Assembly: GCF_964194025.1 (NCBI RefSeq)
Contig: NC_134474.1
Location: 20,398,001-20,436,132 of the forward strand
DNA: 38,132 nucleotides
Reading direction: 5' to 3'
Source: Convolutriloba macropyga
Lineage: Eukaryota
The notes beneath the pieces were generated by a model, which was not told the DNA's origin, did not search any database, and worked only from the letters and a program-made list of their open reading frames with translations. Numbering within the stretch: position 1 is the stretch's first letter; every line of letters starts with the position of its first letter. The position numbers and the translations under genes are program-made. Below are positions 3,231 through 35,408 of this stretch, piece after piece.

Positions 3231-5137
3231 TTGCCGCAATTTTTGCTGCAATGGCACGCAATGGCTCGCAAAATCAAAGAAATGAAATTTTTGTTCAATC
3301 TTGAAAGCTTGCGTCTGATGTACATCGACGGTTATTAACTCCTATGACCCAGATCACAAAATTCTGCTGCACAAACATATGTGCAGATCCGCTCAGTAGA
3401 GTTTCCTTGGCACGTTTGTGTGATGAGTCAAAGAAATGGTCTTTAATTGCTCCTAAAGAGAAACTGAGGGTCATAGTATATTCTACACCGATTGGCGAGG
3501 AAACGAAATAGTTTTTCTTCCGTTCAAAGTTGGTTACCTATTTTTCCAGAACCGATGCCAATTTGTAATGAACTGATTGTCCTTTTCATGGAGGCAAGAA
3601 TGGAGCAGAAAATGATTAGGTTTGGCGTCGTTTTTTTCATAGCAAAAGACATTAGCTTGACATCTGTTGGCATTATTACGAAAGCACTACTGCACAGATT
3701 TCTTTCTCCAGAAGAATCAATGCCGTTTGTTACTCTTATTTCATTGTTTTGGTCTACATACCCAAGTGTGTGCAACTGGCGTAATTTGATCTCTTTCAGG
3801 ACAACGATGCTTATCTTTGCATGATTGGTTGGCCTAGCATGTTTGACCTAACATGACCCGATCAATTCAATCGTTCTGCGCCTTTCTAAAAATTGAAGCG
3901 TCCTTGAACTCGCCATTTCCTCATTTGGAAATATGTCAAAAAATAGCCAATAATCGAGGGCTCAGAATGTTATTGTTTTGACTTCCTAGTTTGGAAGCTG
4001 TTCTCACCTACTTATAATACACGGTATCCACAAAAGAGTCTCGTTTGAAGAACATTGTTTCACCCATGCCGTTTAATAGGTGTCACTTAACAGACAATTG
4101 AACTCAAAAAGTGCAGAATTGTTAGCCAAATCTTTCCTATATCCTTTTGGTGAAAGCATCAGTGCCAACGATTCAGAAGGAGAGTCTTCTGTTTAAATAA
4201 TTCTTTCTGTTACTGGTTCAGACACCTTGCCCAACTCTCAAGCAATTAAGATTTTTGTAAAGGCAATGGAACATTAATTATTGGAACTGAAAATGTGCAA
4301 CTCATTTTCTAAAAAAAGTAATTACACTAGTTCAAATCTATATAGGGTGGTTCAAACACAAAAAAAAACATTATCACCTAAAATGTCCGTGACTAGCCTA
4401 CCAAAAAACATTGAAGATTTAGAAGTTATAAAAAGGCATAAATTAAACTCAACAAGACTGAGCTACGAAATGCAGGTTAGAGAAAAAAAGGTCACGCGCA
4501 AAGTCGTCAATAACAAAAACATATGCACAGAATGCAAACTTATATTTTGACTTTTTCTTGTCAAGTTTGAGTTTTATATAGAAACGCAGCTTTTATGTGG
4601 CACGGTGAATGTCTTTGTATGCTGCTTCCAGGGTATCTTTTTTGTACAACCAGTTCAACTATACACCCTCTCGTTCAAACATTGCTGTTTAAATCACTTT
4701 CCGATGCTGTTGTTTGGCTACGATGTGTAGTTTGAGTTTCAATTGCTTACGTTTACTATACAAAGCGCAACCCAGCTGAGATTCAAAATTGGCAGCGCTG
4801 CTTTGGGCTAGAACTTGACTGAAAGTATTACCTTCGTGCATGACTGGCAGATAAATAGCCGTATTGCCCTCAGACGGTAGCTAGCCTGTCTTGATAAGAG
4901 AATAATACGTCAATACGTTGATTTCGTTTGCTCATATATGAACAGCAAGGCATGAGTTTGATTTCAATTTTGTCGCCATTTTAGTCTATTTATTCATCAG
5001 TTTCAATGTCAAACGAGTACCAAACTTGATCCTTAAACTCCAAAACTTATACTTTCAAATTTAGTTAGTTTATCAAAAGTTGTATGAAAGTAGCCACAAT
5101 TTGCAAAGATTAGAATCTGCGCTAACGCGGCGGAACT

Positions 5138-8800: not shown

Positions 8801-9030
8801 ACTCCTTGTGATCCGTCAACAAAAACAAGGCTCTTTTGACGCTGTGCGTTTACCAACTCCCCAGTTTTTGGACGAAATTGAAAACCAGAATTGAAATATC
8901 TCTCAACTATCGAGTAGAGCTAGTGTAAATTGAAGGAATTATCGGCCAACTACCGAGTGGATTTCAATTGAGTCAGCAACAGTAAAATAAGATCCTTAAA
9001 GATGGGCGTTTACAGACTCCCAGTTTTTCT
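5890..9030. repeat. Degenerate tandem satellite, unit ~185-190 bp, roughly 15 copies, interrupted by the 7846-8150 insert
   Basis: A motif approximating gtgcgtttatgaactccccagtttttgggtgagactgaaaa...aactatcgggtggaactagtg recurs at about 5990, 6173, 6360, 6548, 6793, 7170, 7310, 7488, 7780, 8220, 8571, 8843 and 9003. Confidence 0.8.
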
Positions 9031-17232: not shown

Positions 17233-17659
17233 CCCTAGTAACGAGGGAATTCAAAACTTGCAAGAATCTTTCAAGATTTCAAATTCTTTTGGAAGACTAT
17301 GTTGTAACTTTTTCTCCGAATAAAATCGAAAGAAAAAAAATATTTGTGTTTGAAAAACGCCTGCGACTAACTTGTGTCATATCAGAAATTCTCGAAATTT
17401 TTTTGCGGGTGTTATACAAAAATTAAGTTTGACATAATTCTTCCCCTTGAGTAGCTTAAAGAAATTGACTCTAAGAATTGACTCTTAAAGAAATTGATCT
17501 GATTAATTGACTCTCTCATAAACTTATGTTTAAGTTGATCAAATCCATGCCGTTTTCAAAATTGGAACACTGATTTTGGAGAAAATAAAAAGCACCCTTC
17601 CAAAAGAATTCAAAATCTTGCAAGATTCTTGCAAATTTTGAATTCTTTAATAACTAGGG
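17233..17659. mobile_element. MITE, 427 bp, ~60-bp imperfect TIRs beginning CCCTAGT; possibly CMC/EnSpm-type
   Basis: The left end ccctagtaacgagggaattcaaaacttgcaagaatctttcaagatttcaaattcttttggaag matches the reverse complement of the right end (ccctagttattaaagaattcaaaatttgcaagaatcttgcaagattttgaattcttttggaag). Both flanks are aa. Confidence 0.85.
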
Positions 17660-18530
17660 AAACTACCAGTGTTGCTGCTTGCCTACATAATTACTCAAGT
17701 TAAAAACCGAGGCGAGCGATGGTTCTCTTTTTTAAAAAATCGCGAGGATGAGTTATAGTGATTTTGTGAAGACCAGAAAAAAATGTGGCTTTTCATCATA
17801 TTTCGGGGGCAAGAAAAGGAGTTGATCTGTGTTAGTACCTCATTTTGAAACAAATAAATAACAGCAGAAATGAGGATTTTGATATTCGAGCAAAATCTTT
17901 ATAACCATATTTTAACCTATTTAACATAGCAAATATTTTCCTTTTGTAATGTAGTGCCGCATATATTTTACTATGTCACTGCTACCCTTATTGGACCTTT
18001 TGCTGAATTGATCACGAGGAGCTCTGTGATCAGTTCATGAAAATTAAACCTGATATTGCATCTTTTATAATATTCCACCCAAAAACCTGCTCATTCTTTA
18101 TTCTCTATAGTTTGAAACTCGAAGGGCCAGAGCTGTCACCCATTTTGAGCCTTGCATTATGTTAGTTTTGACCTTAGTCAAATTTTGTTGTTTTCTTCCG
18201 AGGTATGTAAACTTATCGTTGTTTAAGAGTTTATAAAAAACTATTGTTTGTGCAAATAAACTTGTGCACATTCTAATTGACTTGATTTTTGTGTGGAAAA
18301 TTAAGATTTTCAAGAATTTGACAGTTGTTCGCAAGTCCTTAACATTTATGTCAGTTTTAACAAAGTTGACTTTTTCAGAAGAAAAAACATTAGAGTGTCT
18401 TTTTATCCACGTGACTTTCAAAAATCAGTGCAGCGCTTTTGTAATTCTGCTCGTTTTTTCGCTAGAGCTTGCTTAATCTGATTTGAAACTATAATTTATG
18501 AAACTAGAAACCTCGAAATTAAATTCAATG

Positions 18531-18905
18531 CCCGGGTTGACTTTTCCTGGCAACCATATCCAAGAGCCATATATTTTTCCATAGAGGCCTTGAAAGAAGT
18601 TCCTGCATGATCTTTCCATGGTTGCCAAGAAAACTTTGTATGGTGTTTCAATGGATGCCAAGAACTCCATGATGAGTTTTTCATGGTTGCCAAGAATACC
18701 ACGAACAAAACTCGTTTTTTGCCTCAAATGGTAAAAACTGCTTGAAAACGTATCTGATGACATTTCAGGAGGTAATTTTAAGAGCTTTTTGAGCAAGCAA
18801 TATTGATTTTTTTATTTGGTCAGCTATATGGTTGCCAAATTACCATAAAATCCATATGTGACATGCATATGGTTGCCGAGAAAGGTTTCTGGTGGTCGAC
18901 CCGAG
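18531..18905. mobile_element. MITE-like element with imperfect TIRs and internal atggttgccaag repeats
   Basis: The left end cccgggttgac...ctggcaaccatat matches the reverse complement of the right end ctcgggtcgac...ctcggcaaccatat. The internal motif atgg(t/a)tgcc recurs at about 18618, 18651, 18684, 18828 and 18869. Confidence 0.65.
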
Positions 18906-19936
18906 TAGCTTTGGAAATGGTTCCGTAGAAATTACAACAAAACTTGTTTACTTCCGATGTGCGAAAGCTTTCAAAAGTTCAGAAAAATACAAAAGCAACC
19001 CATGTATCTAAAGATTAGCACCACAGAGCCAATATCTGTATTCTCTTTAACATACTCACTGTTCAGTATTTAGAATTTCTACTCTGACAAGCGTTTTTTG
19101 ATCTTTTTGGCTACTCTCCACTTAATTTTGCAACCCCATTTATGCATTTTTAATAGCCGCTGTCAGCCTCTCAATGGCTATTATTCAGGCGTTCTCTTTT
19201 TTTGAATTAAAGAAACTTGAACTGTATTGGTGCGCTCTCCTTTTTTTAAGATCTTTTCACACATTTTAAAGATTTTTGAAGCCAAATAGGATTATTGATT
19301 TTCGTAGAGCAAAAAATCAAGTGCTTTTGAGGCGCGAATTTTTATTTTCACTCGAATTTTAACGCAGAGTGAGAAAATGGCGTTTGAACAAAAAGTCGCT
19401 TTCGCGATTGTTTTTTTAAAGCGGCAATTTTACTCCGATTTGTTTCCGTTGTTTCGAGTTTTTTAATTTGCTTTAAATTTTTACTACATTTTTCGTTGTA
19501 CATAAGTCACGATTTTCACATTTGACTCTTGACTTACCTCACTCACTGCTTCAATTGAATGTTTTTTAAATTCTTTCACGCATTAAATCCCGCAATGTAG
19601 CGAATACGGTCAAGGTCAAAAGAGCAAAATCAAAAGAAACTCGATAAACCCATAAAGCCCGGTCATTAAGTCATCGTGCATTAAGTTATAAAATTTAATT
19701 AGAATGATTGCTAGCTGACTTTAGTATTAAAGTTAAGCTTTCACTTCAGAAGATAAAATAAGTGTAGTTTTTGAATCTAACTGGAACTACACTCCAAATT
19801 AGAACACTTTTAAAAATTTGGAAAAATTGTATACAATTTTTATCTCTTCTTATTTTTTCAAGCACGTCAACGGCGGCTAATTTCCGGTTATCTGCGGGCT
19901 ATGTTTAAATATACTGTTTAAGTTAAGTAAGATATT

Positions 19937-19941
<5 letters not shown>

Positions 19942-19983
<42 letters not shown>
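19942..19983. repeat. (TA)n microsatellite
   Basis: Perfect run of about 21 TA units. Confidence 0.97.
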
Positions 19984-19987
<4 letters not shown>

Positions 19988-21754
19988 CTGCTACTGAAAA
20001 GTGCATTTTACGGCTTTTGTTGTCTTAAGAAAAGTCTGTTTAGAGATAAAGGCATCATGAACCGAACAAACTGATAAATCTCAAAAACATGTTGTGGTGG
20101 TGTTGTCATTTGAGTGGCGTTAGTAGTCTAATGAGTGCAAAGTGGGATGAATTTGACAGAAGACCGTTTAAGCTATCTCAAATGGGGAAGTCTGTAGTGG
20201 TTTTGATCACCGTGAGTTAAACTGTTCAGTTTTCGGTTCGTTATTTTCAATTTTTGACTCATTGATCGTATTTGAGCTCAGTCACAGTTCTGATATGTCT
20301 CAATCATTTCTAATGTTACTTTCAATTTAACATTATATGTTATATGTGATGTTAAACAGCAAATTTGGCAATAAAATTTGCTTTGGTTTTCTGAGTCTAT
20401 TTGGTAACTTTTTTGTCATTTGTTTGTCTTCTTGATTACAAGATCAACAGTGAATTGCTTACAGATATTATTTTGTGTTTTTTGTGTTTTACTGTTTTTT
20501 TAGGGATATTTACGTCAAAAAGTTTCAGCAAACTCGTTTTTTATTGCCAGCTTGTCCATCCGGCCTCCGTGTATCATTTAGTGGTCCATTGATTTTTCTT
20601 TAGCCGTGAATATTTGTTTGATTGATTGATTTGAATTCAGATGGCAGATGATACAAATAATTATCTGTATTGGGTGGCAGTAGGTTTTCGTTTTTGCATT
20701 AGGGCGGATTTGGGACAATTTTGCCTGAGTTTTCGTGTTATGGTCGAGATGTCAAAAAGAGATTTTTTTTGATGCCTACATTATCATTTATTTTCAACAA
20801 ACAACAGATTTCATCTCAAATTTTATGGTTTTTTTACTTTATATTTGTTTGTTTATCGAGGTTTGGCTCATAAAACCAAAATGCTTAAAAACAAGTTGTC
20901 ATTGGAACTTTGTGAAAACTTTCAATTCTATCAATGTGTTAATTATTTAGCTTTAAATAAATCATACGTCTTTCTGTTCTCTTGTATTTTTTAATGCTTT
21001 TGAGTTTTTAAAGAGATACTTTTCGTTTGCAGAAAAGTGTGTTTTGATCTGGTTTGCGAGTCGTAACATGTTTTTTTCAGTGTTTGTTTTGACTTTCGAA
21101 GTTCACGCAAAGAAGAAAATTAAAGTTGGTGTGAATTAACTTACAAGGTGCCAACTTTTTTGGATGCATGTTACGTACGTTTTGAGCAAAATTGAGAATC
21201 AAGTATCGAAAATCACATGAAAGAACACGTACTAGTGAGTATATGCTTTTACAGCACCTTATGGCGCGTTGTATCTAGCACCCCAGTGCAAACGCCCTCA
21301 TTTTAGGGCACTTAGTCATTCGGGTGCCTACAATTTCCGTTGTAATATGTACAGAGAAGCAAGCGATAGCAGAATTTTTTATGGAATTAATTGTTCATGT
21401 TTAGATGTCTGATTAGATTGTCATATGCTTGAAGCTGCAATTGTGTTGACGTTTATTGAACGCTCAAGCGCAAGATCTATCGACATGATAATGATCATAC
21501 CTAGTCTATATACATAAGAAATCCATCTTTGTGATAAAAACAGGACTCAAGAGAAGAATACATATGCCGATAGGGTGATACTCGGCACCCAATCAGCACA
21601 TGCATTCTTCCTCGGTTTTCGGAGCCTACCCGACTAATCATGTTGTTCTATTTTTAGATGAGACAGTAAGCTTGTTCATTTTACTTTTTCAATTTTTAGC
21701 AAAACATATAGAGTCATAACTCCCCCCACTTTTTTCAGCTGCCGTATTGTTCCC

Positions 21755-22260
21755 TTTTGAGTGCGCGTTTGTGTTTGTTGTGTGTGTGTGTGTGTGTAAG
21801 AGTGTATGCGTGCGTGAGTATGTGTGTTTGCTTGTGTTGCGTATGAGTGTGTGCGTGTGTGAGTATGTGTGTTTGCTAAAATAACTTCCTGTTTGTTAGA
21901 GCAAGCACATTAATTTGTCATAGCTCTTAATATCAACACGCTTTATCCTCACGTACAAAAAACAGTATTTTTGCCTCAACAATTTTACTCATTCTAAACA
22001 GTTAATTCTATTCCTAACTTATTCAACCTAAGTATTCGAAAAAGGCTGCGTGTTTTCTAAAAAAACTTATCAAAAAAGTTATCAAAAAAGTAGTTACAAA
22101 AAATGTGTACCCCCCCCCCCCCTCCATCAACCCTACCCACCCGCCCACACACACACCCACACACCAACCCACACACACACACACCTAAACACACACACAA
22201 ACACACACACACACACACACAAGCGCGCACACACACATTCACGTGTTTATACGCAACAAC
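21755..22260. repeat. Inverted pair of simple-sequence tracts: (TG)-rich 21755-21877 and poly-C plus (CA)-rich 22109-22240
   Basis: gtgcgcgtttgtg (21761) pairs with cacaagcgcgcac (22218). gttgcgtat (~21836) pairs with atacgcaac (~22249). Confidence 0.75.
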
Positions 22261-22306
22261 TGACTGATACATGCACACTGTCAGCTTATCTTATATTTGC
22301 AGAAAA

Positions 22307-22780
22307 ATTTACATTTTGTAAAATAATTTTTACAGAATGTAAAAAATTTGTTTTTACAAATTGTAAAATTTTTTTACAAATTGTAAAAACTGCTTTTCTT
22401 CAATAGTATTTCAAATTCTAAAAACAATCAGTTTATCTTACAAAATGTAAAATTTTTACAAATTGTACAAAGATTTTACAAATTGTAAAAATTTTTTTTT
22501 ACAAATTGTAAAAATTTTTTACAAATTGTAAAAAATTATACTTCTCAAAAATTATTTTAAATTCTGAAAACAAACAGTAAATTTTACAAGTTTTTTTACA
22601 AATTGTAAAACTTTCATCGTTCCAAGGAATCTTTCAAAAACTAAAAAATGCGTAATTTTTACAATTTGTAAAAGAAATTTTACAAAATGTAAAAAACTCT
22701 TACTCTTTTTATCGTGATACCTGTCTGCCGGATCAACTCATTTTTACAAAATGTAAAAATTTTTTACAAATTGTAAAAAA
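22307..22780. repeat. Array 1 of the 17-bp near-palindrome TTTTACAAATTGTAAAA (~14-15 copies)
   Basis: Copies at about 22307, 22328, 22352, 22372, 22437, 22454, 22474, 22497, 22517, 22594, 22657, 22678, 22742 and 22762. Confidence 0.95.
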
Positions 22781-23174
22781 CTTGATTCACTATGAGAACA
22801 ACCTTTTTGTTTATTCGTTTTGTGTTTTCAAGTTTTAATTTGAGTTAGCGAAGAAAACTGATTGGTTAATTTTTTCTCTACTTTTCATTCATTCTTTGCT
22901 CGTTTTTCGTTTTTGATAAATTTTCCGATAGGACTCAATGCTTTAATTCTTTGTTTTTGTGGATCATTTTTCCAGATTTTTTCTGATTGGTTGGCGTATC
23001 GACTAACAAGTTGAGTTTAGCTTTGCCTCGCTCCAAGTAAATCATTTTTGCTCACACTGTTGCTAACCGTCATTTGGTTGCTCCTTCTCAACTAAATTTT
23101 TTGCTTTTGTCCTAGCGTTGTTGTTTATTCGAACAAGCTTTACTTATTTTTGTCTTGCTGCTCTAATTTTTTAG

Positions 23175-23612
23175 TTTTTACAAATTGTAAAAAATTCAGC
23201 TTCTACATTTTACAAATTGTAAAAATTTCAGCTTCTACATTTTACAAATTGTAAAAAATTCAGCTTCTACATTTTACAAATTGTAAAAAGTTCAGCTTCT
23301 GCTTTTTACAAATTGTAGAATTTCAACTACGTTTCTCCTACAAATTGTCAAACTTTTAGGCATCTCATTTTACAATTTGTAAAAACTCAACTTCTACTTT
23401 TTACAAATTGTAAAAAACTCAGCTTCTATTTTGTTTACAAATTGTAAAAAACTCAGCTTCTACTTTTTTTTATAAATTGTAAAATTTCAACTACGTTCCT
23501 CGTTCGGAATATTTGTAAGTTCTCTATATTGCTCCTGTTTACAGATTTCAAAAAAAAGGATTATTTCTAACAAGCGAGGGATGTCTTGATCCAATTTTAC
23601 AATTTGTAAAAT
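23175..23612. repeat. Array 2 of the same palindrome within a ~32-bp tandem unit (ttttacaaattgtaaaaaattcagcttctaca), ~11 copies
   Basis: Copies at about 23176, 23208, 23240, 23272, 23304, 23337, 23368, 23399, 23433, 23468 and 23595. Confidence 0.95.
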
Positions 23613-23954
23613 TCGGTCTTTCGCTGTTTTTGTTTTTAATCAGCAAAAAAAATAAATTAAAGTGATTTCTCATTTTTACTTAGAGCTCTTGTTTGCGTTT
23701 TTGAAAAAAACAGCCCTTCCACTTCATTTCAGATTAGCTTGCACTACTACATTTTGTTTCTCATTGGAAGAAAACAAAAAGTGGAGGAGTGTCATCCAAC
23801 TTATATCCAAAAACATCTTGGTCTTCATTCCGACAACATTGTTAGTAAGTAAAAATTTTGATTAAAACACAGTTTGAGCCATGAGCGGTTTTTTTATTTT
23901 TTTTAAAAGAGGAAGTGCTTGCCAACTTTAGGCAGTAGTGATTGCAACGTTTTG

Positions 23955-24823
23955 ATGACAAAATTAGAAAACAGTTTCTTTACGATCGATTTATCATCCA
24001 ATGCGTCGCTTGATTGCTATCCCGACAATACACTTGCATCCTTCCTTACATCACTCAGCGCACCTCAAGAACTTGACGATAATCAGTGCACCGTTTCCCT
24101 CTCTAGCATAACTTGCCCAAAAAAGTTCTCCAATATCGTTGAAGGTAAATTTGACTATATCAATGGAAAACTTGGCATCTACTTATCAAATTGTCGTGTT
24201 CCTAAAGGTTTGTACAATAGCGTGTTCGAATTGATTGATGGCATGGAAAAAGGAATCTATGCATCTAGAAGACAAGAATCTATTTTCGATAAAAGTAAAA
24301 AAGATTTTCAGTTTTCCCGAGAAAAGAACTTACGTCCAAAGGTGTGGTTGTTCTATGCGAAGGAAAGGATTGTGTTCATCTGACAAATGTTTCAGATGAT
24401 CTCAGATACATATTAGGATTGGAGAAATTTCTGTTGGAGACGCATAATAAACTTTCCTCTGGAAACAACCAGTTTGGAGATAAGCCAATTTTTCCAACGG
24501 ATATCAATTTGTATCATCTTGCTTTTGTTTATTGTGACATTATTGAGCCACAGTGTGTTGGCAATACCAAGGCACCCTTATTAAGATCTTTCCCCCTATC
24601 TGACGCAACTCAAATTGGTCCTGAAAAGGTGGAGTCCTCCATCGCAGGCCGTTTCGGATATCCAGCTGTATATCGTCACTCTTTTGACAAAACTCAATCT
24701 AAGCTTGTCAATAAAAAATATATTCACGATATTTTGATTGAAATTCGAAGTGATACTGGGAAACTGATACCTTTCACGGGAGTTGGTCGTACCTACGCAA
24801 CACTTTTCTTTGAAAAAAAATAG
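23955..24823 (+). pseudogene. Polinton/adintovirus minor capsid protein (penton), one frameshift near 24330-24345
   Basis: The N-terminal FFTIDLSSNASLDCYPDNTLASFLTSLSAPQEL...VSLSSITCP and C-terminal FVYCDIIEPQCVGNTKAPLLRSF...IHDILIEIRSDTGKLIPF...ATLFF match the patterns typical of Maverick minor capsid proteins. ORFs 23919-24383 and 24344-24823 overlap in different frames. Confidence 0.8.
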
Positions 24824-24854
24824 TTCATAGTTTCATTGCTTCCAATAATTTAGA

Positions 24855-25528
24855 ATGGGGCAGTGGATCAGAAAACGAAAAGAACAAAGTGACCTCGAGC
24901 GACAAAATGCACAGCCTCTCACCGGAGTAACGCCTGAAGAAGATCTTGAGGTATCAAAACTGGATAACGTGTGGGACCTGGATCCAAAAAACAACCGAAT
25001 TGTCAGAGTCGGGCTCAGAAAATCTGAAACGAGCGTATACGCCTACATTAAGGTCTTCAAACTAACAACTACGGTTGATTCAAAAATCAATACAATATCT
25101 GATAAATGGACCAGACAATCGAGTTTATCGCTCACAATGGACGAATTGATCAACGTCACAAAAATTATTGGTCGTGAATCCAGTGAAACCTTGACCGAGA
25201 CAGATTTGCAGATTTGGCACTGCGGGAGTCTTTTGAGTTGGCAATGACTTCATCCCTTGAAGCGATAAGATGCAATAGCGCTCCTGTTGAAGAGAAGAAA
25301 ATGAAGACGGAAGTTGTGGAAGTTGAACACAAATTAAATGGCGAAACGATTGGCGACGAAGGTGAAGTTTACACCCAGTCTCAAATTGGGGACGACTTTC
25401 CCGAGGACTTTGCTATCCCTGTTACAGAGGATGTATCATTTAGAAATGAACAAGATGCAGATATTTGGCGATCCCCAATCAAATTCAAAGCTAGTCAAAA
25501 AGTGAAAAGAGCAATTCTTCCAATATGA
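24855..25528 (+). pseudogene. PC4/Sub1-like ssDNA-binding domain protein with an acidic C-terminus, frameshifted by an 8-bp duplication
   Basis: WDLDPKNNRIVRVGLRKSETSVYAYIKVFK...SSLSLTMDELINV resembles the PC4 beta-sheet plus SLT.(E/D).. helix. Removing one copy of cagatttg (25201-25216) fuses the two track ORFs into a 221-aa frame (ETDLALRESFELAM). Confidence 0.55.
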
Positions 25529-25770
25529 AAAAATTTTAAATCGTCTGAATGATATCACACAGCTTTGGTTCAACTGATTGATTGGCTACCAGATTATTAT
25601 TCTCCTCTCCTCGATCAACCTATATACAATACTTTTGTATTCTCTTGCTACTATTTTTTAAATAAAAAATTTTTTTGCAGCTTTTACTCGTTATCTCATT
25701 CCAGCCATTGTTGGGCCTTTTTTCAAACCTTGAACAAACTTATAGTGCTGTGTTTTTCAGAAAAGTATCA

Positions 25771-26567
25771 ATGACTTCTGTCAGTTCTTCTGAAGCAGTG
25801 AGTTGCGAAGCAATTGACCTTAGTCGCGGCCATAATCTTGCTGTGAAGCGGGCACGTTTGACAAGGCAACCGGACGGTTTTCATGTTACACTGGAGGATG
25901 ATGAAGGCAATTCTACCCGGATTGAAATCGAAGAGTCTGTCGATGACAACTCCCAACAAGCGAGCTCTACCACTGAAGTTGTTGACTTGGACAATGAGGA
26001 CGTTAATGACGAGGTAATAAGAACCTTTTTGCTTCAAAAGCACCTCCTTTTTTCGAGGATGACATATACTGTACTGTATTGAGATGGGCAGTATCGAACC
26101 CTAAAAGATACAAAAAACAAATCACTTCGATAATTTGCTGAGCCTCAATAATTTTATTGTGTTTTGTTTAGGATAGTGGAAATGTTCAAATAACCCAGAT
26201 AGCGCAAATGTTTGGGATTGACGTAGTGAAGGAAGTTGTCAGTAATCAATCAAATCAAATATCGCTGGGCAATATGATACTCAAGGCTATCGAAGAGGGT
26301 CAATGTAATGATCTTTGTGCGAAGTTCAAATATGTTGCAACGCGAGAAGAATTGAATACGGCTTTTGACTTCATGATAGCTCATTTAAAGAGCCTACTTC
26401 TCCAAATAAACATAGGTTCCTCGGAGACAAATAACATCAAGCGTTATTGTTGGATGCTTGGTTTTTTGTACAAGGCAAAAAGCGATCTGTTCAATGACAA
26501 TGAAGACGAGAGGCGATCAAAAGTGTATAAAAAACTTTGTATGAAAATGCTGTCATGTGACTCTTGA
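25771..26567 (+). CDS. Two-exon hypothetical protein, 212 aa (exons 25771-26013 and 26172-26567); acidic N-half, helical C-half
   Basis: ATG at 25771 follows a tttttcag acceptor. Donor gag|gtaata at 26014 and acceptor ttgtttag| at 26171 are both phase 0, joining ...DVNDE to DSGNVQITQIAQMFGIDVVKE in frame with track ORF 26208-26567. Confidence 0.65.
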
Positions 26568-26927
26568 AGACTTGATTCTTCGCTGCCAAACCATAGCATA
26601 GCAAAACGTTCGACCTACCATAATTCATTTTTCTTGCGCGGATTTTGTTATGTCTAAAAATTTATTGTACACTTATTTCTTCTTTCATATGTGTATTATT
26701 ACATTTCATCTTATGCTAAGACAGTCAGTCATTTATTGACTATTTAGTTGTTTTACTACCAAATTTTTTATCTTATTTTGAATTTCAACGACCAACTGCA
26801 AGAAGCTAGTTTATTCAAAACCACCTTGTCTTCAATAATATTATTAGGAATGATTGTTAAACTCATTAGAAAAAAAAAGTTCTCACAAGATCACCAATTC
26901 AGCCACTTCTGTTTTTCAGACCACAAA

Positions 26928-27344
26928 ATGCAGAGTGGAAATCAACCGTGTGCAATGTGCGACAACCCGTTATGCTCAAAAGAAGTTGAAGTTTACGAAA
27001 AAGTTGAGATAGCTGTTCGTCAACTGGAGCTGTCACATCAGTCTATTACCATTTCGATAGATAACGGATCCTGTACATGGATAGAAGCTCTGAGAAACCT
27101 GGAAAGCACAAAGGCTTTTGGAAATGTGCTCTACCATGTGGGAATCATCAGACGCTTCGCTTCCTTATTCCAATGGAATCGACTGAACAAGACTCTCGAA
27201 CAAATTTATCTGAGGCTCGCGGATTGTTACAGAAAAATTGATATGCACGACGACGCAAAAGCACTCAGCTTAAGAGCATTCAATTTATCGCAAGAATATA
27301 GACAGCGTAATGAGGCACAGAAACCAGTGACGATCCCAGAGTGA
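26928..27344 (+). CDS. Hypothetical alpha-helical (TPR-like) protein, 138 aa, N-terminal CxxC-x4-C
   Basis: Intact frame, with the ATG 8 nt after gtttttcag. It aligns by eye with 27641-28006. AATAAA follows at 27504. Confidence 0.65.
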   Translation: MQSGNQPCAMCDNPLCSKEVEVYEKVEIAVRQLELSHQSITISIDNGSCTWIEALRNLESTKAFGNVLYHVGIIRRFASLFQWNRLNKTLEQIYLRLADCYRKIDMHDDAKALSLRAFNLSQEYRQRNEAQKPVTIPE

Positions 27345-27640
27345 TTGTTCCTAAACTATATTATAACGTTTTTTCGAACGTTTATAATTTTTGTAAGCTG
27401 CCTATCTTTCACCTTCAAATATTATGTATAGTTCAGAGTGTTTTTACTGCTATTAAAGTACTTTAATTTATATCCGGGTTTAACCTACAGCTTTTTTGAG
27501 AGGAATAAAAACGTGTCAGCTATTGAACAGACTCTTTTTCAAAAGATTTGAATGATATCTTTCCAATCAACCGTTAATCAAACTTGATCAAACTGATTTT
27601 GTTGTTGCGGTTTCTAACGTATTTCCTGCGTTTCAGTGAA

Positions 27641-28006
27641 ATGAATGTACACGCCAGTGCAGATGAAAGGTTTGTCTATCTTGACAAATGTATTGCGGCC
27701 TGGAACGATTCACTAATGGAAGCAAGTGAAGGTATTCGATTAAAAGAGATGAACGATGTGAAGGCGGTGCAGCTTTTAAAAGGCCTCAGAGACGAAGGTT
27801 TACGACTTCATTCGCTGCCAAATATCAAAGAGTTTTTGACTGGTTTTCAGTGGTTCAGCATAACATATCTGATGGAACGAACCTATCAAAAACTTGGAGA
27901 AATTCTTCTACGTCTTGGTGGTTCCTCTAAATCTGAAGCCAAAGAATTTCTTTATATGGCAGCGGTTTTTGCCTGCAAATATGTTCAGAAACCAGCCAAC
28001 AATTGA
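27641..28006 (+). CDS. Hypothetical alpha-helical (TPR-like) protein, 121 aa, paralog of 26928-27344
   Basis: The ATG follows a branch-point-like ttctaac (27612) and tttcag (ending 27636). It shares F...FQW......E..Y..L...(D/E)AK.....A......Y with the upstream ORF. Confidence 0.65.
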   Translation: MNVHASADERFVYLDKCIAAWNDSLMEASEGIRLKEMNDVKAVQLLKGLRDEGLRLHSLPNIKEFLTGFQWFSITYLMERTYQKLGEILLRLGGSSKSEAKEFLYMAAVFACKYVQKPANN

Positions 28007-28359
28007 TTAAATTGTGCCTTTAACTGTTGCTTTCAAATAATAAGTAAAACTTGCTCCAACCTTTTACCACCCATGCTGCTGTATTTAAAGCCGCTAATCA
28101 TTTTCCAAACAAAACATTTTCTTTTGTCATTTCTGATGCGCTCACTTTTTGTACTCGAGTTTTCTAATTATTTTATGATGACACAATACTTTATTCTTGT
28201 CTCAACTTAAAAAAGAACACGAATTCTGTTTAACATTTTTTTTGCTGTTCGAAATTGATGATTGTTCTCTCTCTATAAACCACACAAACAGACCGTCGTC
28301 TAAAACTAATAATTGAAGAATCAGGTTCTAAATTTGATACCTGTTTTCAGACACTGATC

Positions 28360-31300
28360 ATGTCAACTGAAAACACACACACTAATGGCAGCAGCAGCAA
28401 CGCTACTGTAGCAGAAGCACCAGACCTGAGCTCAGCTAGTGGTTTTGATCCCTCAACCTTTTATCAAATAACACGAAGACCGAAAAGAAGGAGCTCCTTA
28501 CAAGCGGTCAGTCGCGACTTCGAGGTCAGTTTCCGAGGTATTGAAACCCAAATTGACAAAGTCAAAGACGTTTTTAATCACTTGATAAATTTCCTCATTG
28601 AAGAATTAAACCGTGAAAACGAAAATACTAACCACCGTATACGCTTGGTTCTAAATGCTCCGAGTCTGAGTTACCCAGTTCATATACCTTTTCAGGAAGC
28701 GGCTGATTTTAACATCGATTTTGTGTTAAATGAAATTGAGCGTGTTTAAAATTCAAACGAAGGGTTTGACATCAGTAGCGATATGAAAGTGAATGTGTTA
28801 TCGGTGTCTTTACCTGCAATGGGTGGCTATAAAATAGGCGGAATTCATAATTGAACTATCCCCGACGTACTAACTTTCATATCACAGAAGCGATCAGTTA
28901 TATCTATTCATACTGATGAATAAAATAATTGCTTATTAGCAGCACTAGGCGTAGGCATGGCTCTGGCAGATAACGGATTACAGCAGGCAAAGAAACAATT
29001 TTCAAAAAATTACAAACAGGAGTTGGAAAAAAAGCAGTTGATATTCAAACTGAAACGGTTTTCAAATTGGGATATTGATTTCGGAAACAGCGCGAATAAA
29101 AAATGGACTCTTGACGATCTCTCTATGTTGGCCAAAACCGCAACTCTAAAACCATACAACATAACTGTGTACGATGCAAAGTTCATGGGTGTTTATTTGA
29201 AAAGTTTCAACGACGGCCAGGAGAAGCACATTGATTTGTTGTACAACTCAAACGCAGAGCACGTTGATGTAATCACTTCAATGAAGGGCCTGTTCAGCGT
29301 TCGGTTTTACTGCTATGCTTGTCATAAAGGATTTTCTACTGTTAAACACTTGTGTGCAGCTAGTTCGTATGCCAAAGTGTCGTATGCCAAAGTGCAGAAA
29401 CAGGGCTTCTACTGCGTTCAATACTGATTTTTTTGGACAACAGACGTGTTCTACGTATGTTCTAGGTATTTTGTAGAGTCAGCTGTGCTTGGATGCGCAT
29501 ATAACACAACGTATTTGCTCTTATTTCTACAAATGTCCTGGGTGCAATCTTACTGTTTCCCGGCACTCGGCGTCCACTCATCAATGCAGCAAAAAACGAT
29601 GCGTTACTTGTTCTCAATTTTACAATTTCTCACAAGGAAAGAAACACGAGTGTTTTGTACAGAGCCCCAAAAAACGGGCACGTGCAGCCCTGGAGACTGA
29701 TGTTGGTGAAAGAACGACTGTTGATGGTGATAACGGAAATTTTGCCAGCAAGAAATCAAAGAGGAGTAACCTCTTCAATTCAGTGTCCAGTTCTGACGCT
29801 TCTTTCTCGCGACAGGAAGAAGAAGCAGAGCAAGCAGTGCCAGACGAACAAACTTGGGCCTTTGACTTTGAAACTGATCAGAGCTGCGAACAAAAGAATG
29901 TACACAAACCGGTTCTTCTGATTGCAAAATCATTTTCCGGAGTTGAAAAATCTTTTGTTGGTTACAATTCAGTTAACGATTTTTGTCTTTGGTTGTTCGA
30001 CAACAAAGAGCGTTTCAGAAAGTGCGAATGGTTCATTGCTCATTTTGGAAGTGGGTACGACTTTCTGCCAATCTTGGAGTGGCTATATCAGAAACAAAGT
30101 TTCATTCCAAAAATTGTTCTGAGAGGCAATAAAGTTGTGTCACTCAAAGTGGGAAATAAACGGTTTATTGATTCATACCTGTTCAAACCTATCCCTCTTC
30201 GGAAATTTCGAAGACATTTACCATTGAAGAGACGGAGAAGGGATATTTCCCCCACTTTTTTACTTCATCTGCAGCTTTTGAAGGTAAAACACCTTTTCAT
30301 ACAATTTCTTCGTGCCCCAATGGACAGGAATGCGGCTTAGTGAACATAGTTTCCGCTGATTGCCCTCACTGCATTAGTAGGAGAGTTGACAGACTTTCAA
30401 AACTCCAAGGATTAAATTGCACAGCACGGACGCTAACAAGAGAATGCGATGAGAATTCAAGAGAATGCCAAGAACCAGATTTTGCCTTCCTACCCGGACA
30501 GTTCCCGCCGCGGTGTCTGTTTGGCGTTAATTCCCTACAAGATACTGAGTATTTTAATCACTTCATTCAATGGCATCAACAACAAGAGGTAATTTACAAG
30601 GAAAACTTGCTAAATTACGAATTTCAGCTAGAGTTAACAAAATACTGCCAGTCAGACGTTGAATTATTGAAACAAGGTGTTACCACTTTTTGACGACTGA
30701 TTAAGAAAACATGCAACAACATTGACCCCTTTCAAATAGCATGTACTGCTGCATCAGCCTGTAACTATATATACCGACAACTGTTCATGCCTCCAGCCTC
30801 TATAGCGATTTTACCATCAAACGGATATCGGTCGATGGAGAAAACTTCGTTCCCGGCTAATCAATGGCTCTGCTGGATCGAACGTACCGAGAGGGAAAAA
30901 AACAGGAATTTTGAAATCAAGTTCTACAAATCAAACTCGTTGGGTGGTTCTGCTTCAAAAAACGATAAAGAAGTTCGAGAGCAAAAAATTGGCCCGTGCC
31001 GTGTAGATGGCCTCATGTTAAAAAAAGAGCGCTCCGATGAACAAGATTGGATCAGCGATTCTAAAGTTGTGTACAGAGCAAATATTTATGAGTTTTTTGG
31101 TTGTTATTATCACGGCTGCTACAAATGTTATCCAAATCGCAAAGAGTTTAATAAGAAAAAGGGAATGACTATCGAAGAGCTTCATTTCACCACTTTTCAA
31201 GAAAGATTTCAGTTTCTCCAATCTCAAATTGAAAACAAAGTTCGCCACAAAACGACGGATGGTTTAAATTATGTTATTGAGTCATGTGAAAATATCTGGG

Positions 31301-32986
31301 AATGTCAATTTAACGATTTAGTTAAAAATCATTCTTTTGAGGAAGCGGCAAAAATTGCTCCTTTTTCTAACGGCCACTATCATAACTAAAAGTTGAAACA
31401 ACTGGTGAGCAGTAGCGAGTTTTTTTCACCACTCAAAGCCAGAGACGCTTTTGTTGGCGGTCGGACAGAAAGTTTCTGCACACGTTGGCACAAAAAGAAT
31501 TGTAACCAAAAGTTTCGGTATGTTGATATTTGTTCCTTGTACCCGTATGTTAACGCGTCGTGCCCTTATCCTGTTGGTCATCCGGATTTTGTGCTTGTGG
31601 CTCCAGTTTTTGATGAAAATGTGTCGGAAAATCCGTTAAGTCTTCAGCGACGAAAAGTGCTAGCATCACGCTCGAATGATTGCATTTATTGTCAGCCCTT
31701 TTCGGAAGTTGAACAAAAAATTTTGGATGAAGAATATTTTGGATTAATCAAATGTCTTGTTCTGCCGCCGAGGAATCTCTGGATACCAATTATCCCTTTC
31801 AAGTATAATGCGAAACTTTTTTCCCGCTCTGCAGGAAGTGCGTGGAAACCACTAGTTCTAACAAATCCCAGCAGGCAAATATCCCAATCGATGGGTCAAA
31901 TTGCTCGCACAGTGATTACCTTGATAGGGCTTTCTGGGGCACATTTGTGACTGTTGAACTACGATTAGGGATTCGTTGGGGCTACAGAGTTATTGATGTG
32001 TCGGAAATTTGGTCATAGAGCACTGCAAGACGCTCATCAAACTTATTTCGGGAGTACATAAACACTTTTTTGAAGATAAAAACAGAAGCGAGTGGGTGGC
32101 CAGTAGAGTGTAACTGTGATCAGACTGAAACTTGTAGCCACAGAAGAGACTTTCTGCGCGACTTTGAACCTAAAGAGGGGGTTAAACTGAATGAGGAGAA
32201 TATGGAGCGGAACGAAGGCTTACGTTTCATCTCAAAAATTCTTCTCAATTCTTTTTGGTGTTATCTTGGTATGCGTGAGAACCTGCCAAAGACGAGGTAT
32301 GTCAACAATTACCCTGATGTCGTAAAATACTTCACGTCTAATTTTTCTCGCGTTTTTGACGCAACTCTAGTGGAAGAAGATTTGATGCTTCTTCAGTACC
32401 AAATGATTGACGATGCGGCTGATATTCCGAGAAAATCTAATGCTGTTTTGGCTGCCTTTACAACCGCCCACGCCCGAAGCATACTATATCAGCATATTTC
32501 GAAAGTGAAAAATCCTCAAAACGTTTTATACTGTGATACAGACAGTATAATGTACATTGATGAGCAAGTTAGTGGTTTGGATGCTCATAGGGATATACCT
32601 ATCGGTTCCTATCTCGGTGATATGCCGGATGAGCTTCCAAAAACGGTCACGGTTGATAATTTTTTTTTGGCGGGCCAAACTTTTACTGTATCAATGGACG
32701 CAATAATGAAACAGCTGCTGAGTACTATGTTTTTAAAGTCAAAGATCTCACTATTAACAGAGCAGTGGAGAAAACGTTCGATATCGAAGCGTTCAAAAAA
32801 CTGGTTCTTCAGGAGGTGCACGAGCTGCGCTCCCCATTTAGCTCAATGCGTCGTTGCGTTAAAACTGATAAAATTCAAACACAGTTTTGCAAAAAAATGA
32901 CTAAGATAACTTGTACTAAACGCTGCTTCGATACTGATACTGGCTTATCTGTCCCCTATGGTTTCTTATCCAACTTCAAACATTAA
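28360..32986 (+). pseudogene. polB: Protein-primed family B DNA polymerase (pPolB), Polinton/alpha-adintovirus type, ~1500 aa ancestral
   Basis: N-terminal IERV*NSNEGF...KRSVISI..NNCLLAAL..EHVDVI; Cys-rich zinc region; ExoI FDFET, ExoII AHFGSGYD, FIDS, KGYFPHF, ExoIII YCQSDV; insert VDG...YEFFGCYYHGC...IWECQF; Pol A YVDICSLYP; FPLCRKC; KTEASGWP; Pol B SKILLNSFW; Pol C YCDTDS; C-terminal KR...SVPYGF. Stops at 28747, 28852, 28921, 30691, 31387 and 32016. Frameshifts near 29370-29490, 30208, 31820 and 32670. Confidence 0.96.
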
Positions 32987-33109
32987 TGTAGCCAGTTTGT
33001 ATTTGGTAACAGTAATTTAATTTTTGTTTCTTTTTTCAATTTGAAGTATTAATTTCTTTTCACACTTTTTTTCTCCAATTGTTTATTTTTTGAACAGAAA
33101 TTTCAAACC

Positions 33110-34123
33110 ATGCACAAACTTTGTCTTGTTTTTAGATTATTGAACGTTATGTCTCAAACCAAGTCAGACAGCACTCAACATTGGAGCTCAGAGACGATAA
33201 CAGACTGGTCAAGTAACAGCTATCTAGAAAAACTGACTTGTCACTACATTGCGGTCGACTCCTGTCAAATGAAGAATAAGGCCTGTTGCATGAGCGTTGA
33301 TGGGTTTTATTGTTGCGGGCCAAGGGGCCAACTAAGAGCTGACTTAGATCTAATTAATGACACTATTGTCAGCTCTATTGTGCGCGCAAACTATATTTCC
33401 TTGTTCCTGTTCATCCTTTCGATAAATTTGCTGTCTGTCGTTGTGTGTTGTTTTATTGATGCTAGCCATTTCCGATGGTCCTGAAAACAGGAAATTCAGT
33501 CAGCCTTTAAAAGGAAATCGAAAAACCGGCCGGCGACTGCGGTTCTAGGGAAAGGGATTGCGGTGGACGGGCAAACACGCTTGCAAGAAGACAAAAATTC
33601 ATCTGACTTGATTTGCAGGGGTTGCTCTGCTACAACGCAAGGCGAAATGTCCGCGGCTTCATGGTGGCAACACGGTTAAAATTCTGTCCAAGCTCTCCAG
33701 ACTACTGCGCAAGTTCACTCCGTTCCTCCCGATCTCTTGGTTTCCAATGCAAGTAGGGAAAACATCACTGCAGTTTTACCACTGATTGGACCAAAAAAGT
33801 ATAGGCAGTATCTGGTTTTGTATGAAAGAAAACACTCTTTACCAACAAGCTCTCGAAACATTTATTATACACAAATTTCCGTTCAGAGAAACAATTCTTT
33901 CACGACAATTTCAAAAGACAAGCCAGCAAATGTGAGTCATTTCAAAGATAATAACCCCTCTACTTCTCACTTTGGAAGCCTGGTCGAAGACGTGCCCGCC
34001 CGAAAAAAGAGGTTGCCATCTAAATCAAGTGTAGATGATAACACTTCTACAACAACAACAACAACTTCGACTTTTTCTCGTAAGCAATTGTATAGTTATG
34101 GAGACCTTGAAACGCTAGTTTGA
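33110..34123 (+). pseudogene. Type I single-pass membrane protein (six-Cys ectodomain, TM helix, S/T-rich tail, C-terminal ETLV) with two premature stops
   Basis: Track ORFs 33110-33484 and 33737-34123 share a frame, and the only stops in between are 33482 (tga) and 33677 (taa). The ectodomain pattern is C-x7-C-x6-CC-x7-CC and the TM segment is YISLFLFILSINLLSVVVCC. Confidence 0.65.
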
Positions 34124-34520
34124 TTGATGGATTGATCATATCTTGCAAAAGAAGAGGAGCACTTGATGATCATTTTTAAAGCAGAGACTTATGGCTGTCT
34201 GTCTGTCTCTCTATGTTTGTATATCATATCTCGAAGTTTTGTATTGTATTTCAGCAAACATTTGTGATGAATTAGTCTTTATTGATGACAGTACTTGTTG
34301 CTTTTTACTGTACAAAAGATTGAAATGAATGAAAGGAGAACTGCCAATTTGAGGCATTTTTTTGTAACTTTTAGATTTTTGATAGTTGTAGGTAGAACTA
34401 ATTGTTTAATTACTAACTACCGCACTTATATGTTTTTCTTTTAGTTTTCATTTGTTGTTTCATTTGTGTACCTATTATTAATTGTGATGCAGGGGGGCAC
34501 TGATTCTTCAGAGTTTTGGT

Positions 34521-35213
34521 ATGGAGTTTCGTCAAGGTGCCACCAGGATTTATGCGCATTTTGCGTTCTGCCCCACCAATGATTGTGAGAAAGGAGCAAT
34601 AGAGCAATGTGATCACATTTTGGAGGAGCTCTGTGTAATGCTACAGCGTGAGCACATTGAGTTTGTGATTGGTGCCTATGTCTTTAACTGCCTAAAACAA
34701 TGCGGTTTTCCAAATGCAGTGTTTGTGACACGAAAAACTTCACAGAATCAACATCGTGTTCCAAATTCAGCTCAAAGGCGCAATCTTATGTCGTCCACTA
34801 ATAAGGAAGCACCGGAACTTTGCGAGAACCATCTTCATTTGTTGATATACTGTAGAGATGACTCCCAATAATCTACAAGTAATGCCCAACCAGCGACCAC
34901 AACAAACTGGAGACTTGAAGAAGCCGTAGCACGCGTAAGGCACTATTTCAGTTTTCAACTACCGAGGTCAGAGATGAGATCAGGCTTCAAGTTCTTTCAA
35001 ATACAAGTGTGGTGTCCCTTCTCTGTGTATGCTGCTTTCGCTGGACAAATAAAAAATAAACAGTCTTATGCTCTTGCGCGCGGGGAACAATTCGACTTGT
35101 TCAGTTCTACATATGACGCAAATGCTGACTTGAACAAATATTTTCCAAAGAGAGCACCAATTCTCCGTTCCAAGTGCCTGTTTGAACTGCAGATAAAATT
35201 CTTGGTAAAATAG
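34521..35213 (+). pseudogene. HUH-endonuclease-like protein, ~230 aa, one premature stop at 34869
   Basis: Track ORFs 34521-34871 and 34974-35213 are in frame and the sequence between them is open. HLHLLIY lies at 34830-34850, with a downstream helix PFSVYAAFAGQIK. The ORF itself is well supported; the family assignment is inferred. Confidence 0.5.
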
Positions 35214-35408
35214 TGTTGTGCATATGGACCGCAATTTAGATTATGACATCTTTGGTTTTTCTTAATACAGTTTAATACATAAATGTAAGATTGAAGGCAG
35301 GCAAGTAGTATGTATCCTTGACTCAACTTTCACGCTCTCTACGCAACATTATCATGGTTGGTAGCCTTTCTCATAATACAAGGTTTGGTCATTTCAGAGA
35401 GAGATTCA

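What the first reader, a model, noticed from the sequence alone, without database searches (positions are those of the whole stretch)
22307..23612. Helically phased arrays of a 17-bp palindrome at the start of the element: candidate origin or enhancer
Seen: about 25 copies of TTTTACAA-N-TTGTAAAA in two clusters. In cluster 1 the copies come in pairs 20-21 bp apart (about two helical turns). In cluster 2 the period is ~32 bp (about three turns). The palindrome is conserved while the spacers vary, and this array is not seen elsewhere in the window. Known: baculovirus hr regions, polyomavirus and papillomavirus origins and plasmid iterons are arrays of phased sites for an initiator. Inference: these are binding sites for a dimeric element-encoded or host protein, acting in replication, packaging, HUH recognition or enhancement of the downstream transcription unit.
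Basis: partly seen in the sequence, partly recalled or inferred. Interest (0 to 1): 0.7.

Follow-up and report, generated by a model that had tools for sequence, protein, structure and literature searches.

The report
Palindrome array heading a Polinton's genes
A virus-like Polinton element lying in many copies in an animal genome carries two dozen regularly spaced copies of a short mirror-symmetric DNA motif just in front of what looks like the single promoter for all its genes, most likely as an enhancer, though binding and activity are untested.

Summary
The array is real: 24 copies of TTTTACA-NNN-TGTAAAA at 22307-23611 and none elsewhere in the window (0.14 expected). The arms are more conserved than the 3-nt centre or the spacers. 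Helical phasing is only modestly supported.

The array lies about 760 bp inside the inferred left end (21550, AGAGAAG) of a multi-copy Polinton/Maverick-like element with a minor-capsid gene and a protein-primed polymerase gene, both broken here. Contig depth over the array follows the element, not a dispersed MITE.

New here: all element genes lie on one strand, and most have a splice acceptor just before the ATG. The element's only two perfect + strand splice donors, an ATG-free exon and a TATA box lie between the array and the first gene. This suggests one leader-spliced transcription unit, as in adenovirus, with the array as its enhancer. There are no RNA data and no binder was identified.

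Against specificity: the same 17-mer forms unphased arrays in introns of unrelated host genes in another eukaryote. HUH recognition has no support. The far end lies outside the window, so membership of the terminal repeat is untested.

The parts
21550..21556 (+). Inferred left terminus of the element, AGAGAAG (Polinton-type 5'-AG start; 5 of the 6 letters of the (AG)3 end motif)
   Evidence: A flank contig of run X1 (depth 42, no differences) ends at 21579, which with 31-letter words puts the start of repeated DNA at 21550. Seen in one run of four. End motif from PMC8097293.
21770..21877 (+). (TG)n-rich tract, inverted partner of the (CA)n tract
22146..22237 (+). (CA)n-rich tract directly before the array
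22307..22778 (.). Cluster 1: 14 palindromes TTTTACA-NNN-TGTAAAA in pairs or fours 18-24 bp apart, groups separated by 46-48-nt spacers (63-65 bp centre to centre)
   Evidence: Spacer 22695-22741 has the same length as the other three but no sequence similarity to them.
22779..23175 (.). Non-repetitive gap between the clusters; multi-copy like the element body
   Evidence: Contig depth 700 at 23045 in X1 against 42 for the flank
23176..23484 (.). Cluster 2: ten units of about 32 bp, each with one palindrome (one degenerate, at 23336)
23471..23476 (+). TATAAA inside the last cluster-2 palindrome; candidate TATA box (inferred)
   Evidence: Only TATA[AT]A on the + strand of 21550-23920
23515..23520 (+). 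Splice donor GTAAGT closing candidate leader exon 1 (inferred)
   Evidence: One of only two GTAAGT on the + strand of 21550-38132
23595..23611 (.). Lone perfect palindrome, in the candidate first intron
23733..23844 (+). Candidate leader exon 2: 112 nt without ATG, between a TTTCAG acceptor and the GTAAGT donor at 23845 (inferred)
   Evidence: Two of its three frames have no stop, so a coding role is not excluded.
23919..24823 (+). Minor capsid (penton)-like gene, in two pieces in this copy
   Evidence: A 303-aa relative, P0001 (92% identical; cluster of 26), maps in two frames. Atlas hits of 0.97-0.98 to viral clusters, one with Sputnik V18/19 in 26% of members. No Pfam hit.
24855..25247 (+). 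Small gene, possibly PC4-like (weak lead)
   Evidence: Low-confidence model, pLDDT 43.5, three strands then a helix. PC4 homologues only at E 0.28-0.8.
25771..28006 (+). Four small genes of unknown function; three have an acceptor within 10 nt of an ATG
   Evidence: The ORF at 26928 has a 20-member cluster.
28360..32965 (+). Protein-primed DNA polymerase B gene, in several pieces in this copy; TTTTCAG acceptor 9 nt before its ATG
   Evidence: PF03175 E=4.6e-9; 2,539 relatives at E<=0.001; tblastn pieces in several frames; acceptor
33110..37870 (+). Further co-oriented small genes; the element runs on beyond the window end
   Evidence: Multi-copy depth continues to 38132.

Best explanation
The array is the upstream control region (enhancer plus promoter-proximal sites) of a Polinton/Maverick-like endogenous DNA virus. 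A dimeric protein, from the host or the element, binds each TTTTACA-NNN-TGTAAAA site. Spacings near 2, 3 and 6 helical turns put many bound dimers on one face of the DNA, so that they act together. They drive one promoter at the right edge of cluster 2 (TATAAA at 23471). Its short non-coding leader exons (donors 23515 and 23845) are spliced onto acceptors in front of each downstream gene, as in the adenovirus major late unit. Shown: the array, its conservation pattern, its linkage to the multi-copy element, the one-strand gene order and the pattern of donors and acceptors. Inferred: protein binding, the promoter, the splicing and the enhancer activity.
For: Arms are conserved and the centre is free, 9 of 350 against 10 of 75. 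Cluster-2 palindromes are more conserved than their spacers, 5 of 119 against 24 of 90. Four cluster-1 spacers are 46-48 nt long although one is unrelated in sequence to the other three. Depth in the array bins is 1,470-2,853 (X1) and 1,624-2,004 (X3), against 445-2,600 and 756-3,378 in the element-body bins, 43-48 in the flank bin 20860-21524 and 67,000-87,000 over the neighbouring dispersed repeat. No ATG-started ORF of 95 aa or more lies on the minus strand of the element. An acceptor lies within 16 nt of the first ATG in 6 of 11 ORFs against 12 of 227 other ATGs (p=3e-5; 8 of 11 with two starts moved). Both + strand GTAAGT of 16.6 kb lie between the array and the first gene. Baculovirus hr palindrome arrays are a precedent for enhancer function through a dimeric protein (PMC2834656; bioRxiv 10.64898/2026.05.26.727872).
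Against: The same 17-mer forms arrays in introns of an ABC-transporter gene and a legumain gene of an AT-rich eukaryote, with no element gene seen on those short contigs. In the four loci only 11 of 27 spacings are in phase, about chance. In run X5 (organism B) contigs match palindrome pairs and run on into unrelated DNA. So the motif also exists outside this element. Phasing rests on few independent spacings (6 of 12, p about 0.03). The acceptor pattern was chosen after looking at the sequence. GTAAGT is also scarce on the minus strand (1 site). No sequence-specific DNA-binding domain was found among the element's ORFs.
Confidence: 0.5

Rival explanations
1. The array is a subterminal packaging or end-recognition signal, like the seven A repeats of the adenovirus packaging domain or the internal repeats of transposon ends. 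It is bound by a packaging protein, terminal protein or integrase of the element or of a helper.
For: It lies 0.76-2.06 kb from the inferred left end, the position of the adenovirus packaging domain (position recalled; A repeats bound by IVa2 and L4-22K in PMC4346872). The element has a minor-capsid-like gene. Maverick terminal repeats reach 1,447-1,500 bp, so cluster 1 could lie inside one.
Against: No ATPase, major capsid, protease or integrase gene was recognised in the 16.6 kb seen. The sites are two-fold symmetric, whereas A repeats are directional (recalled). Depth at 23045 and 23512 in X1 (700, 812) is not above the element body (920-996 on single contigs), which argues against cluster 2 being repeated at the far end. 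This role does not explain the adjoining TATA box and donors, though it does not exclude them.
Confidence: 0.2
2. The array is a neutral AT-rich palindromic minisatellite that grew by slippage and unequal crossing-over inside the element's non-coding left arm and is carried along passively. The periods reflect duplication units, not selection.
For: The identical 17-mer forms arrays in host introns of another eukaryote (4 loci among 241 million metagenome records, 3 of them from one data set). Cluster 1 holds a 147-bp duplication and cluster 2 is a plain tandem repeat. One X3 contig shows a joint going back 92 bases within cluster 1, a length variant. The strand folds strongly (z=-9.3), which favours slippage.
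Against: Two clusters with different periods and unrelated spacers share one invariant motif. Arms are far more conserved than spacers and centre. One spacer keeps its length while having lost all similarity. None of the 25 copies carries a mirrored double change in its arms, as hairpin correction would leave (read from the list). No exact palindrome pair occurs in 596 Gb of prokaryote genomes or in IMG/VR, so AT richness alone does not make it common.
Confidence: 0.2
3. The array works through chromatin: as bent or nucleosome-excluding DNA, or as docking sites for an anti-silencing protein that keeps the integrated element active in the germ line.
For: The array is made of A and T tracts. The same motif in host introns elsewhere recalls periodic A/T clusters of nematodes (recalled). 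The element has many near-identical copies (pieces about 98% alike), so it has been active in the germ line recently.
Against: Autocorrelation of A/T triplets peaks at 7-8 and 20-21 (cluster 1) or 32 (cluster 2) and is negative at 10-11, so the 10-bp signature of periodic A/T clusters is absent. The invariant C and G in the arms point to base reading rather than shape alone.
Confidence: 0.1

Closest known systems
Polintons/Mavericks (adintovirus-like endogenous Preplasmiviricota); PMC8097293 and PMC10748475, passages read
   Same: Protein-primed polymerase B, a minor-capsid-like gene, a size above 16.6 kb, many near-identical copies and an inferred end starting AGAGA.
   Different: No integrase, ATPase, protease or major capsid gene recognised in the part seen. 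All genes lie on one strand with acceptors before the ATG, whereas the intact vertebrate elements are described simply as intronless ORFs. No internal palindrome array appears in the passages read.
Baculovirus homologous regions (hr) bound by dimeric IE1; PMC2834656, PMC6669502, bioRxiv 10.64898/2026.05.26.727872, passages read
   Same: An array of palindromes with variable spacers, suited to a dimer and acting as an enhancer. One AgMNPV hr7 unit begins GTTTTACAA, a superficial likeness.
   Different: hr palindromes are 28-30 bp and imperfect, sit in about 75-bp repeats, are dispersed round a circular genome and also serve as origins. Here the unit is 17 bp, near perfect, at one place in the part seen, and no IE1-like gene was found.
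Adenovirus major late transcription unit and A-repeat packaging domain; PMC4346872, passages read
   Same: One long unit giving many mRNAs by alternative splicing to a shared leader; a repeat array near one genome end; the same broad lineage (protein-primed polymerase, penton).
   Different: The unit here would include the polymerase and start about 2 kb from the end. The repeats are symmetric 17-mers rather than TTTG-containing A repeats. The splicing is predicted from sequence only.
Foldback/Mutator terminal repeats such as Tm1 of root-knot nematodes; PMC3169594, passages read
   Same: A variable number of short repeats near an element end.
   Different: The Tm1 unit is a 14-bp non-palindromic motif with no likeness to this one (0 occurrences of TTACA or TGTAA in that text). 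No inverted second arm lies in this window.

Membership tests
Polinton/Maverick | Protein-primed DNA polymerase B | tested here: met
   PF03175 E=4.6e-9; relatives of 1,300-1,650 aa map along 28462-32965; broken in this copy
Polinton/Maverick | Minor capsid protein | tested here: met
   Atlas features 0.97-0.98 to viral clusters, one with V18/19 in 26% of members. One source only: Pfam gave nothing and the single-sequence fold failed (pLDDT 29.6).
Polinton/Maverick | Retroviral-type integrase, packaging ATPase, protease, major capsid protein | tested here: inconclusive
   None recognised among 21 ORFs in Pfam or 13 proteins in PHROGs; the element runs off the window
Polinton/Maverick | End motif 5'-(AG)3 or (AGT)2 | tested here: inconclusive
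   AGAGAA at the inferred end 21550, 5 of 6 letters; the end rests on one contig end in one of four runs
Polinton/Maverick | [quoted passage not shown] | not testable with these tools
   The right end lies outside the window and no whole genome is held; no inverted copy of 21550-23900 within the window
Baculovirus hr enhancer/origin | 28-30-bp imperfect palindrome, dispersed copies | tested here: not met
   17-bp unit at a single locus in the window
Baculovirus hr enhancer/origin | Enhancer activity through a bound dimer | not testable with these tools
   Needs reporter and binding assays
Dispersed host MITE or minisatellite | Copy number far above that of the element, independent of it | tested here: not met
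   Array bins are of the same order as the element body in X1 and X3, and about 25-55 times lower than the dispersed repeat at 19147-19906. Scattered single palindromes elsewhere in the host are not excluded.
Periodic An/Tn clusters (PATC; definition recalled) | About 10-bp periodicity of A/T tracts | tested here: not met
   Autocorrelation is negative at 10-11 in both clusters
HUH (rolling-circle) origin | Linked HUH endonuclease gene | tested here: inconclusive
   No HUH family hit; the ORF at 34521 was not folded
Adenovirus-type leader-spliced unit | Common leader exons joined to alternative acceptors in mRNA | tested here: inconclusive
   The donor and acceptor pattern fits; no RNA run was available to show the junctions

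The most novel reading that the evidence does not exclude
This Polinton lineage expresses its whole gene set, polymerase and capsid genes alike, from one promoter through adenovirus-style leader splicing. It controls that promoter with a phased array of a palindrome read by a conserved animal DNA-binding protein, the same site that forms arrays in host introns of another eukaryote. The array would be a defined on-switch for a Polinton, and would make the open question of what activates these endogenous viruses directly testable.
Probability: 0.25. Interest if true: 0.75.

Novelty: new variant of a known kind. Interest (0 to 1): 0.55.

Why it matters
Polintons are known almost only from sequence, and how they are switched on is open (my knowledge; my paper searches found no account of their promoters, enhancers or splicing). 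A compact, recently multiplied family with a clear candidate enhancer, TATA box, leader exons and acceptors gives exact junctions to look for in RNA and a 17-bp bait to find the activating protein. If confirmed, it links Polinton gene expression to the adenovirus late-unit design. If the array proves neutral, it is an ordinary minisatellite, and only the splice architecture remains of interest.

Tried and rejected
No whole genome is held, so a genome-wide motif count and the far end could not be examined. No RNA holder was listed; this is no evidence either way.

An exact pair of palindromes was found in 0 stretches of IMG/VR and 0 of the GTDB genomes. A looser pair pattern hit 68 IMG/VR loci. 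None is a comparable array: at most 2 strict copies per locus and at most 6 loose cores per 1.5 kb.

Three scans of IMG/VR for relatives of the capsid-like and polymerase proteins found no locus, so no related element could be checked for an array.

Rfam: 0 matches in 21000-24500 at E<=0.1. Pfam: 0 of 56 host-side frames matched, so the host lineage is not established. The PDB hits of ORF 24855 to designed 'Pizza' repeat proteins were rejected as an artefact of summed repeat scores. Folds: ORF 24855 pLDDT 43.5 with no match at E<=0.001; P0001 pLDDT 29.6, not searched. The Atlas search for ORF 35409 gave nothing above 0.86. The sigma-70 scan is at chance level and irrelevant for a eukaryote. 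Tm1 was rejected as the source of the motif.

Known animal factor motifs (forkhead, SOX, DMRT, POU, bZIP, steroid receptor) were compared from memory only, and none fits the 7-3-7 geometry well. Doubling of depth near 21674-21720, which would mark a terminal repeat, was not accepted, because depths there are sums over overlapping contigs.

Full report
A scan for TTTTACAA-N-TTGTAAAA finds 24 copies with at most two mismatches, 15 of them perfect, all between 22307 and 23611 and none elsewhere in the window. A Markov model of the region gives 0.05 on average. Written as TTTTACA-NNN-TGTAAAA with one mismatch allowed, the count is again 24, against 0.14 in 100 shuffles. Cluster 1 (22307-22778) has 14 copies, cluster 2 (23176-23484) has nine plus one degenerate copy, and one copy stands alone at 23595.

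The unit is a 7-3-7 site. Over 25 copies the arms deviate at 9 of 350 positions and the centre at 10 of 75; the centre is AAT in 17, ATT in 3, AAA in 3, TTT in 1 and GAA in 1. In cluster 2 the six 15-nt spacers deviate from their majority at 24 of 90 positions and the seven flanking palindromes at 5 of 119. In cluster 1 the spacers between groups are 47, 48, 46 and 47 nt long. Three are related, and the fourth (22695-22741) is no more like them than a shuffle. Conserved arms, a free centre and a conserved spacer length are what a bound dimer would leave (inference).

Phasing is real but modest. Spacings cluster at 20-21, 32 and 63-64 bp, and 16 of 22 spacings under 100 bp lie within 1.5 bp of a multiple of 10.5. 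Many are copies of one duplication: of 12 distinct classes only 6 are in phase (p about 0.03), and 18, 23, 24, 34, 35 and 77 are not. A/T-triplet autocorrelation is negative at 10-11 bp, so this is not a 10-bp periodic A/T cluster.

The element downstream is Polinton-like. Pieces at 28360-32965 encode a protein-primed polymerase B (PF03175; 2,539 relatives; mapping of full-length relatives). The first gene, 23919-24823, has a 303-aa relative in a cluster of 26 ENA proteins, the 15 listed lying on contigs of 23-639 kb. That relative resembles minor capsid proteins of Preplasmiviricota by language-model features (0.97-0.98). Both genes are in pieces in this copy. Another small gene has a 20-member cluster. 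No integrase, ATPase, protease, major capsid or HUH family was recognised, but the element continues past the window. The best named polymerase relative among ten looked up is from a sea urchin at 44%. The host lineage is not established.

The array belongs to the element. Four runs were laid on 18200-38132. In X1, flank contigs have depth 42-44, and contigs of the element body about 98% alike to the window have depth 520-996. The array bins have summed depth 1,470-2,853 in X1 and 1,624-2,004 in X3, the same order as the body bins (445-2,600 and 756-3,378), while a dispersed repeat at 19147-19906 reaches 67,000-87,000. The non-repetitive gap between the clusters (700 at 23045) and the DNA just after cluster 2 (812 at 23512) are multi-copy too. 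These depths are not copy numbers, but they agree with the cluster sizes of 20-26 and show that the array is not a high-copy MITE of this host. One X3 contig goes back 92 bases within cluster 1, so array length varies between copies.

The X1 flank contig ends at 21579. With 31-letter words that places the start of repeated DNA at 21550, where the sequence reads AGAGAAG, close to the (AG)3 end motif reported for Mavericks (PMC8097293, passages). This end rests on one run of four. It puts the array 0.76-2.06 kb inside the element. Terminal repeats of 46-1,447 bp (same paper) or 100-1,500 bp (PMC10748475, passages) could cover cluster 1. Depth gives no sign that cluster 2 is doubled, and the far end cannot be seen.

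The surroundings point to transcription. No ATG-started ORF of 95 aa or more lies on the minus strand of the element. An acceptor of the TTT[CT]AG type lies within 16 nt of the first ATG in 6 of 11 ORFs, against 12 of 227 other ATGs (p=3e-5). It does so in 8 of 11 if two starts are moved to the next ATG. The 11 are the 14 ORFs listed less three internal polymerase pieces, and the pattern was chosen after inspection.

The only two GTAAGT donors on the + strand of 16.6 kb lie at 23515 and 23845, between the array and the first gene. An ATG-free 112-nt stretch lies between an acceptor ending at 23732 and the second donor. The only TATA[AT]A in 21550-23920 is at 23471, inside the last palindrome of cluster 2. 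I read this as one promoter with two short leader exons spliced onto each gene, as in the adenovirus major late unit (PMC4346872, passages). Host trans-splicing would explain the acceptors but not the donors. No RNA tests this.

Results against. An exact pair of the 17-mer occurs in 4 loci among 241 million metagenome records. Three come from one data set, are 20-25% G+C and carry 9-13 copies each. Two of these are in introns of an ABC-transporter gene and a legumain gene; they look nematode-like to me, which I did not test. No element gene was seen on them, and across the four loci only 11 of 27 spacings are in phase. In run X5, contigs match palindrome pairs and continue into unrelated DNA. 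The motif is therefore not specific to this element: either a host-type protein reads it, or AT-rich palindromes of this form arise repeatedly. It is still rare: none in GTDB genomes or IMG/VR. No binder was identified, and the PC4 reading of ORF 24855 stayed a weak lead.

Mechanism. Most likely (0.5) the array is an enhancer and promoter-proximal platform for a dimeric factor that drives the element's single spliced unit. A packaging or end-recognition role (0.2), a neutral minisatellite (0.2) and a chromatin role (0.1) remain. An internal replication origin is unlikely because protein-primed polymerases initiate at the termini (recalled). The array works like a baculovirus hr enhancer, a palindrome array bound by dimeric IE1 (PMC2834656, PMC6669502 and bioRxiv 10.64898/2026.05.26.727872, passages). 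It is not an hr: the unit length differs, it occurs at one place in the part seen, and no IE1-like gene was found. It is not Tm1 (PMC3169594, passages).

Novelty. A full-text search for the 13-letter core found 0 papers. Searches joining Polinton or Maverick with palindromes and tandem repeats (8 papers), subterminal repeats (1), splice acceptor and leader (0), adintovirus and spliced (2) and enhancer terms (none of the 15 listed mentions Polintons) showed no description of such an array or unit. I saw those only as listings. The library lacks most subscription journals, including the founding Polinton papers, and I read no supplements; element annotations there could mention such repeats. Earlier notes of this scan describe other motif arrays in related elements; they are unchecked leads. 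Verdict: a real, element-linked array and a new variant of a known kind, interest 0.55.

Noticed in passing
window 23471-35409: One-strand gene run with a splice acceptor just before most ATGs and two perfect donors upstream: a predicted adenovirus-style leader-spliced unit, possibly of more interest than the array itself.
   Followed up: partly
window 21770-21877 and 22146-22237: (TG)n and (CA)n tracts form an inverted pair about 270 bp apart inside the element's left arm; a single strand could fold back there.
   Followed up: no
window 19147-19906: Very high-copy dispersed repeat (summed depth 67,000-87,000 against about 45 for flanks), with sharp loose ends at 19147 and 19906 and many internal deletions; probably a non-autonomous transposon.
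   Followed up: no
L001 551-818, L002 647-958, L003 24-566, L004 153-392: The same 17-bp palindrome forms arrays with 24-60-bp spacings in introns or non-coding DNA of other eukaryotes; unexplained.
   Followed up: partly
L005-L072 (IMG/VR): TTACA-NWN-TGTAA pairs in viral contigs have spacings that peak at 21-24 (32 of 76) and 31-33 (20 of 76), with none at 18-20, 25-27 or 29, as for phased operators; L069 has 15 such sites spread over kilobases. Redundancy among loci was not checked.
   Followed up: no
window 17233-17659: Inverted repeat with 63-nt arms (86%) 301 nt apart, MITE-like.
   Followed up: no
window 5960-8890: Degenerate repeat family of about 180-bp units in the host DNA (families D3, D6, D7).
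   Followed up: no
window 30706-32924: Contigs about 83% alike at depth 29-36 in X1 and X3 show older, diverged subfamilies of the element in the same host; useful for testing conservation of the array.
   Followed up: no
window 37937-38010: (AACTC)n tandem tract inside the multi-copy element near the window end.
   Followed up: no
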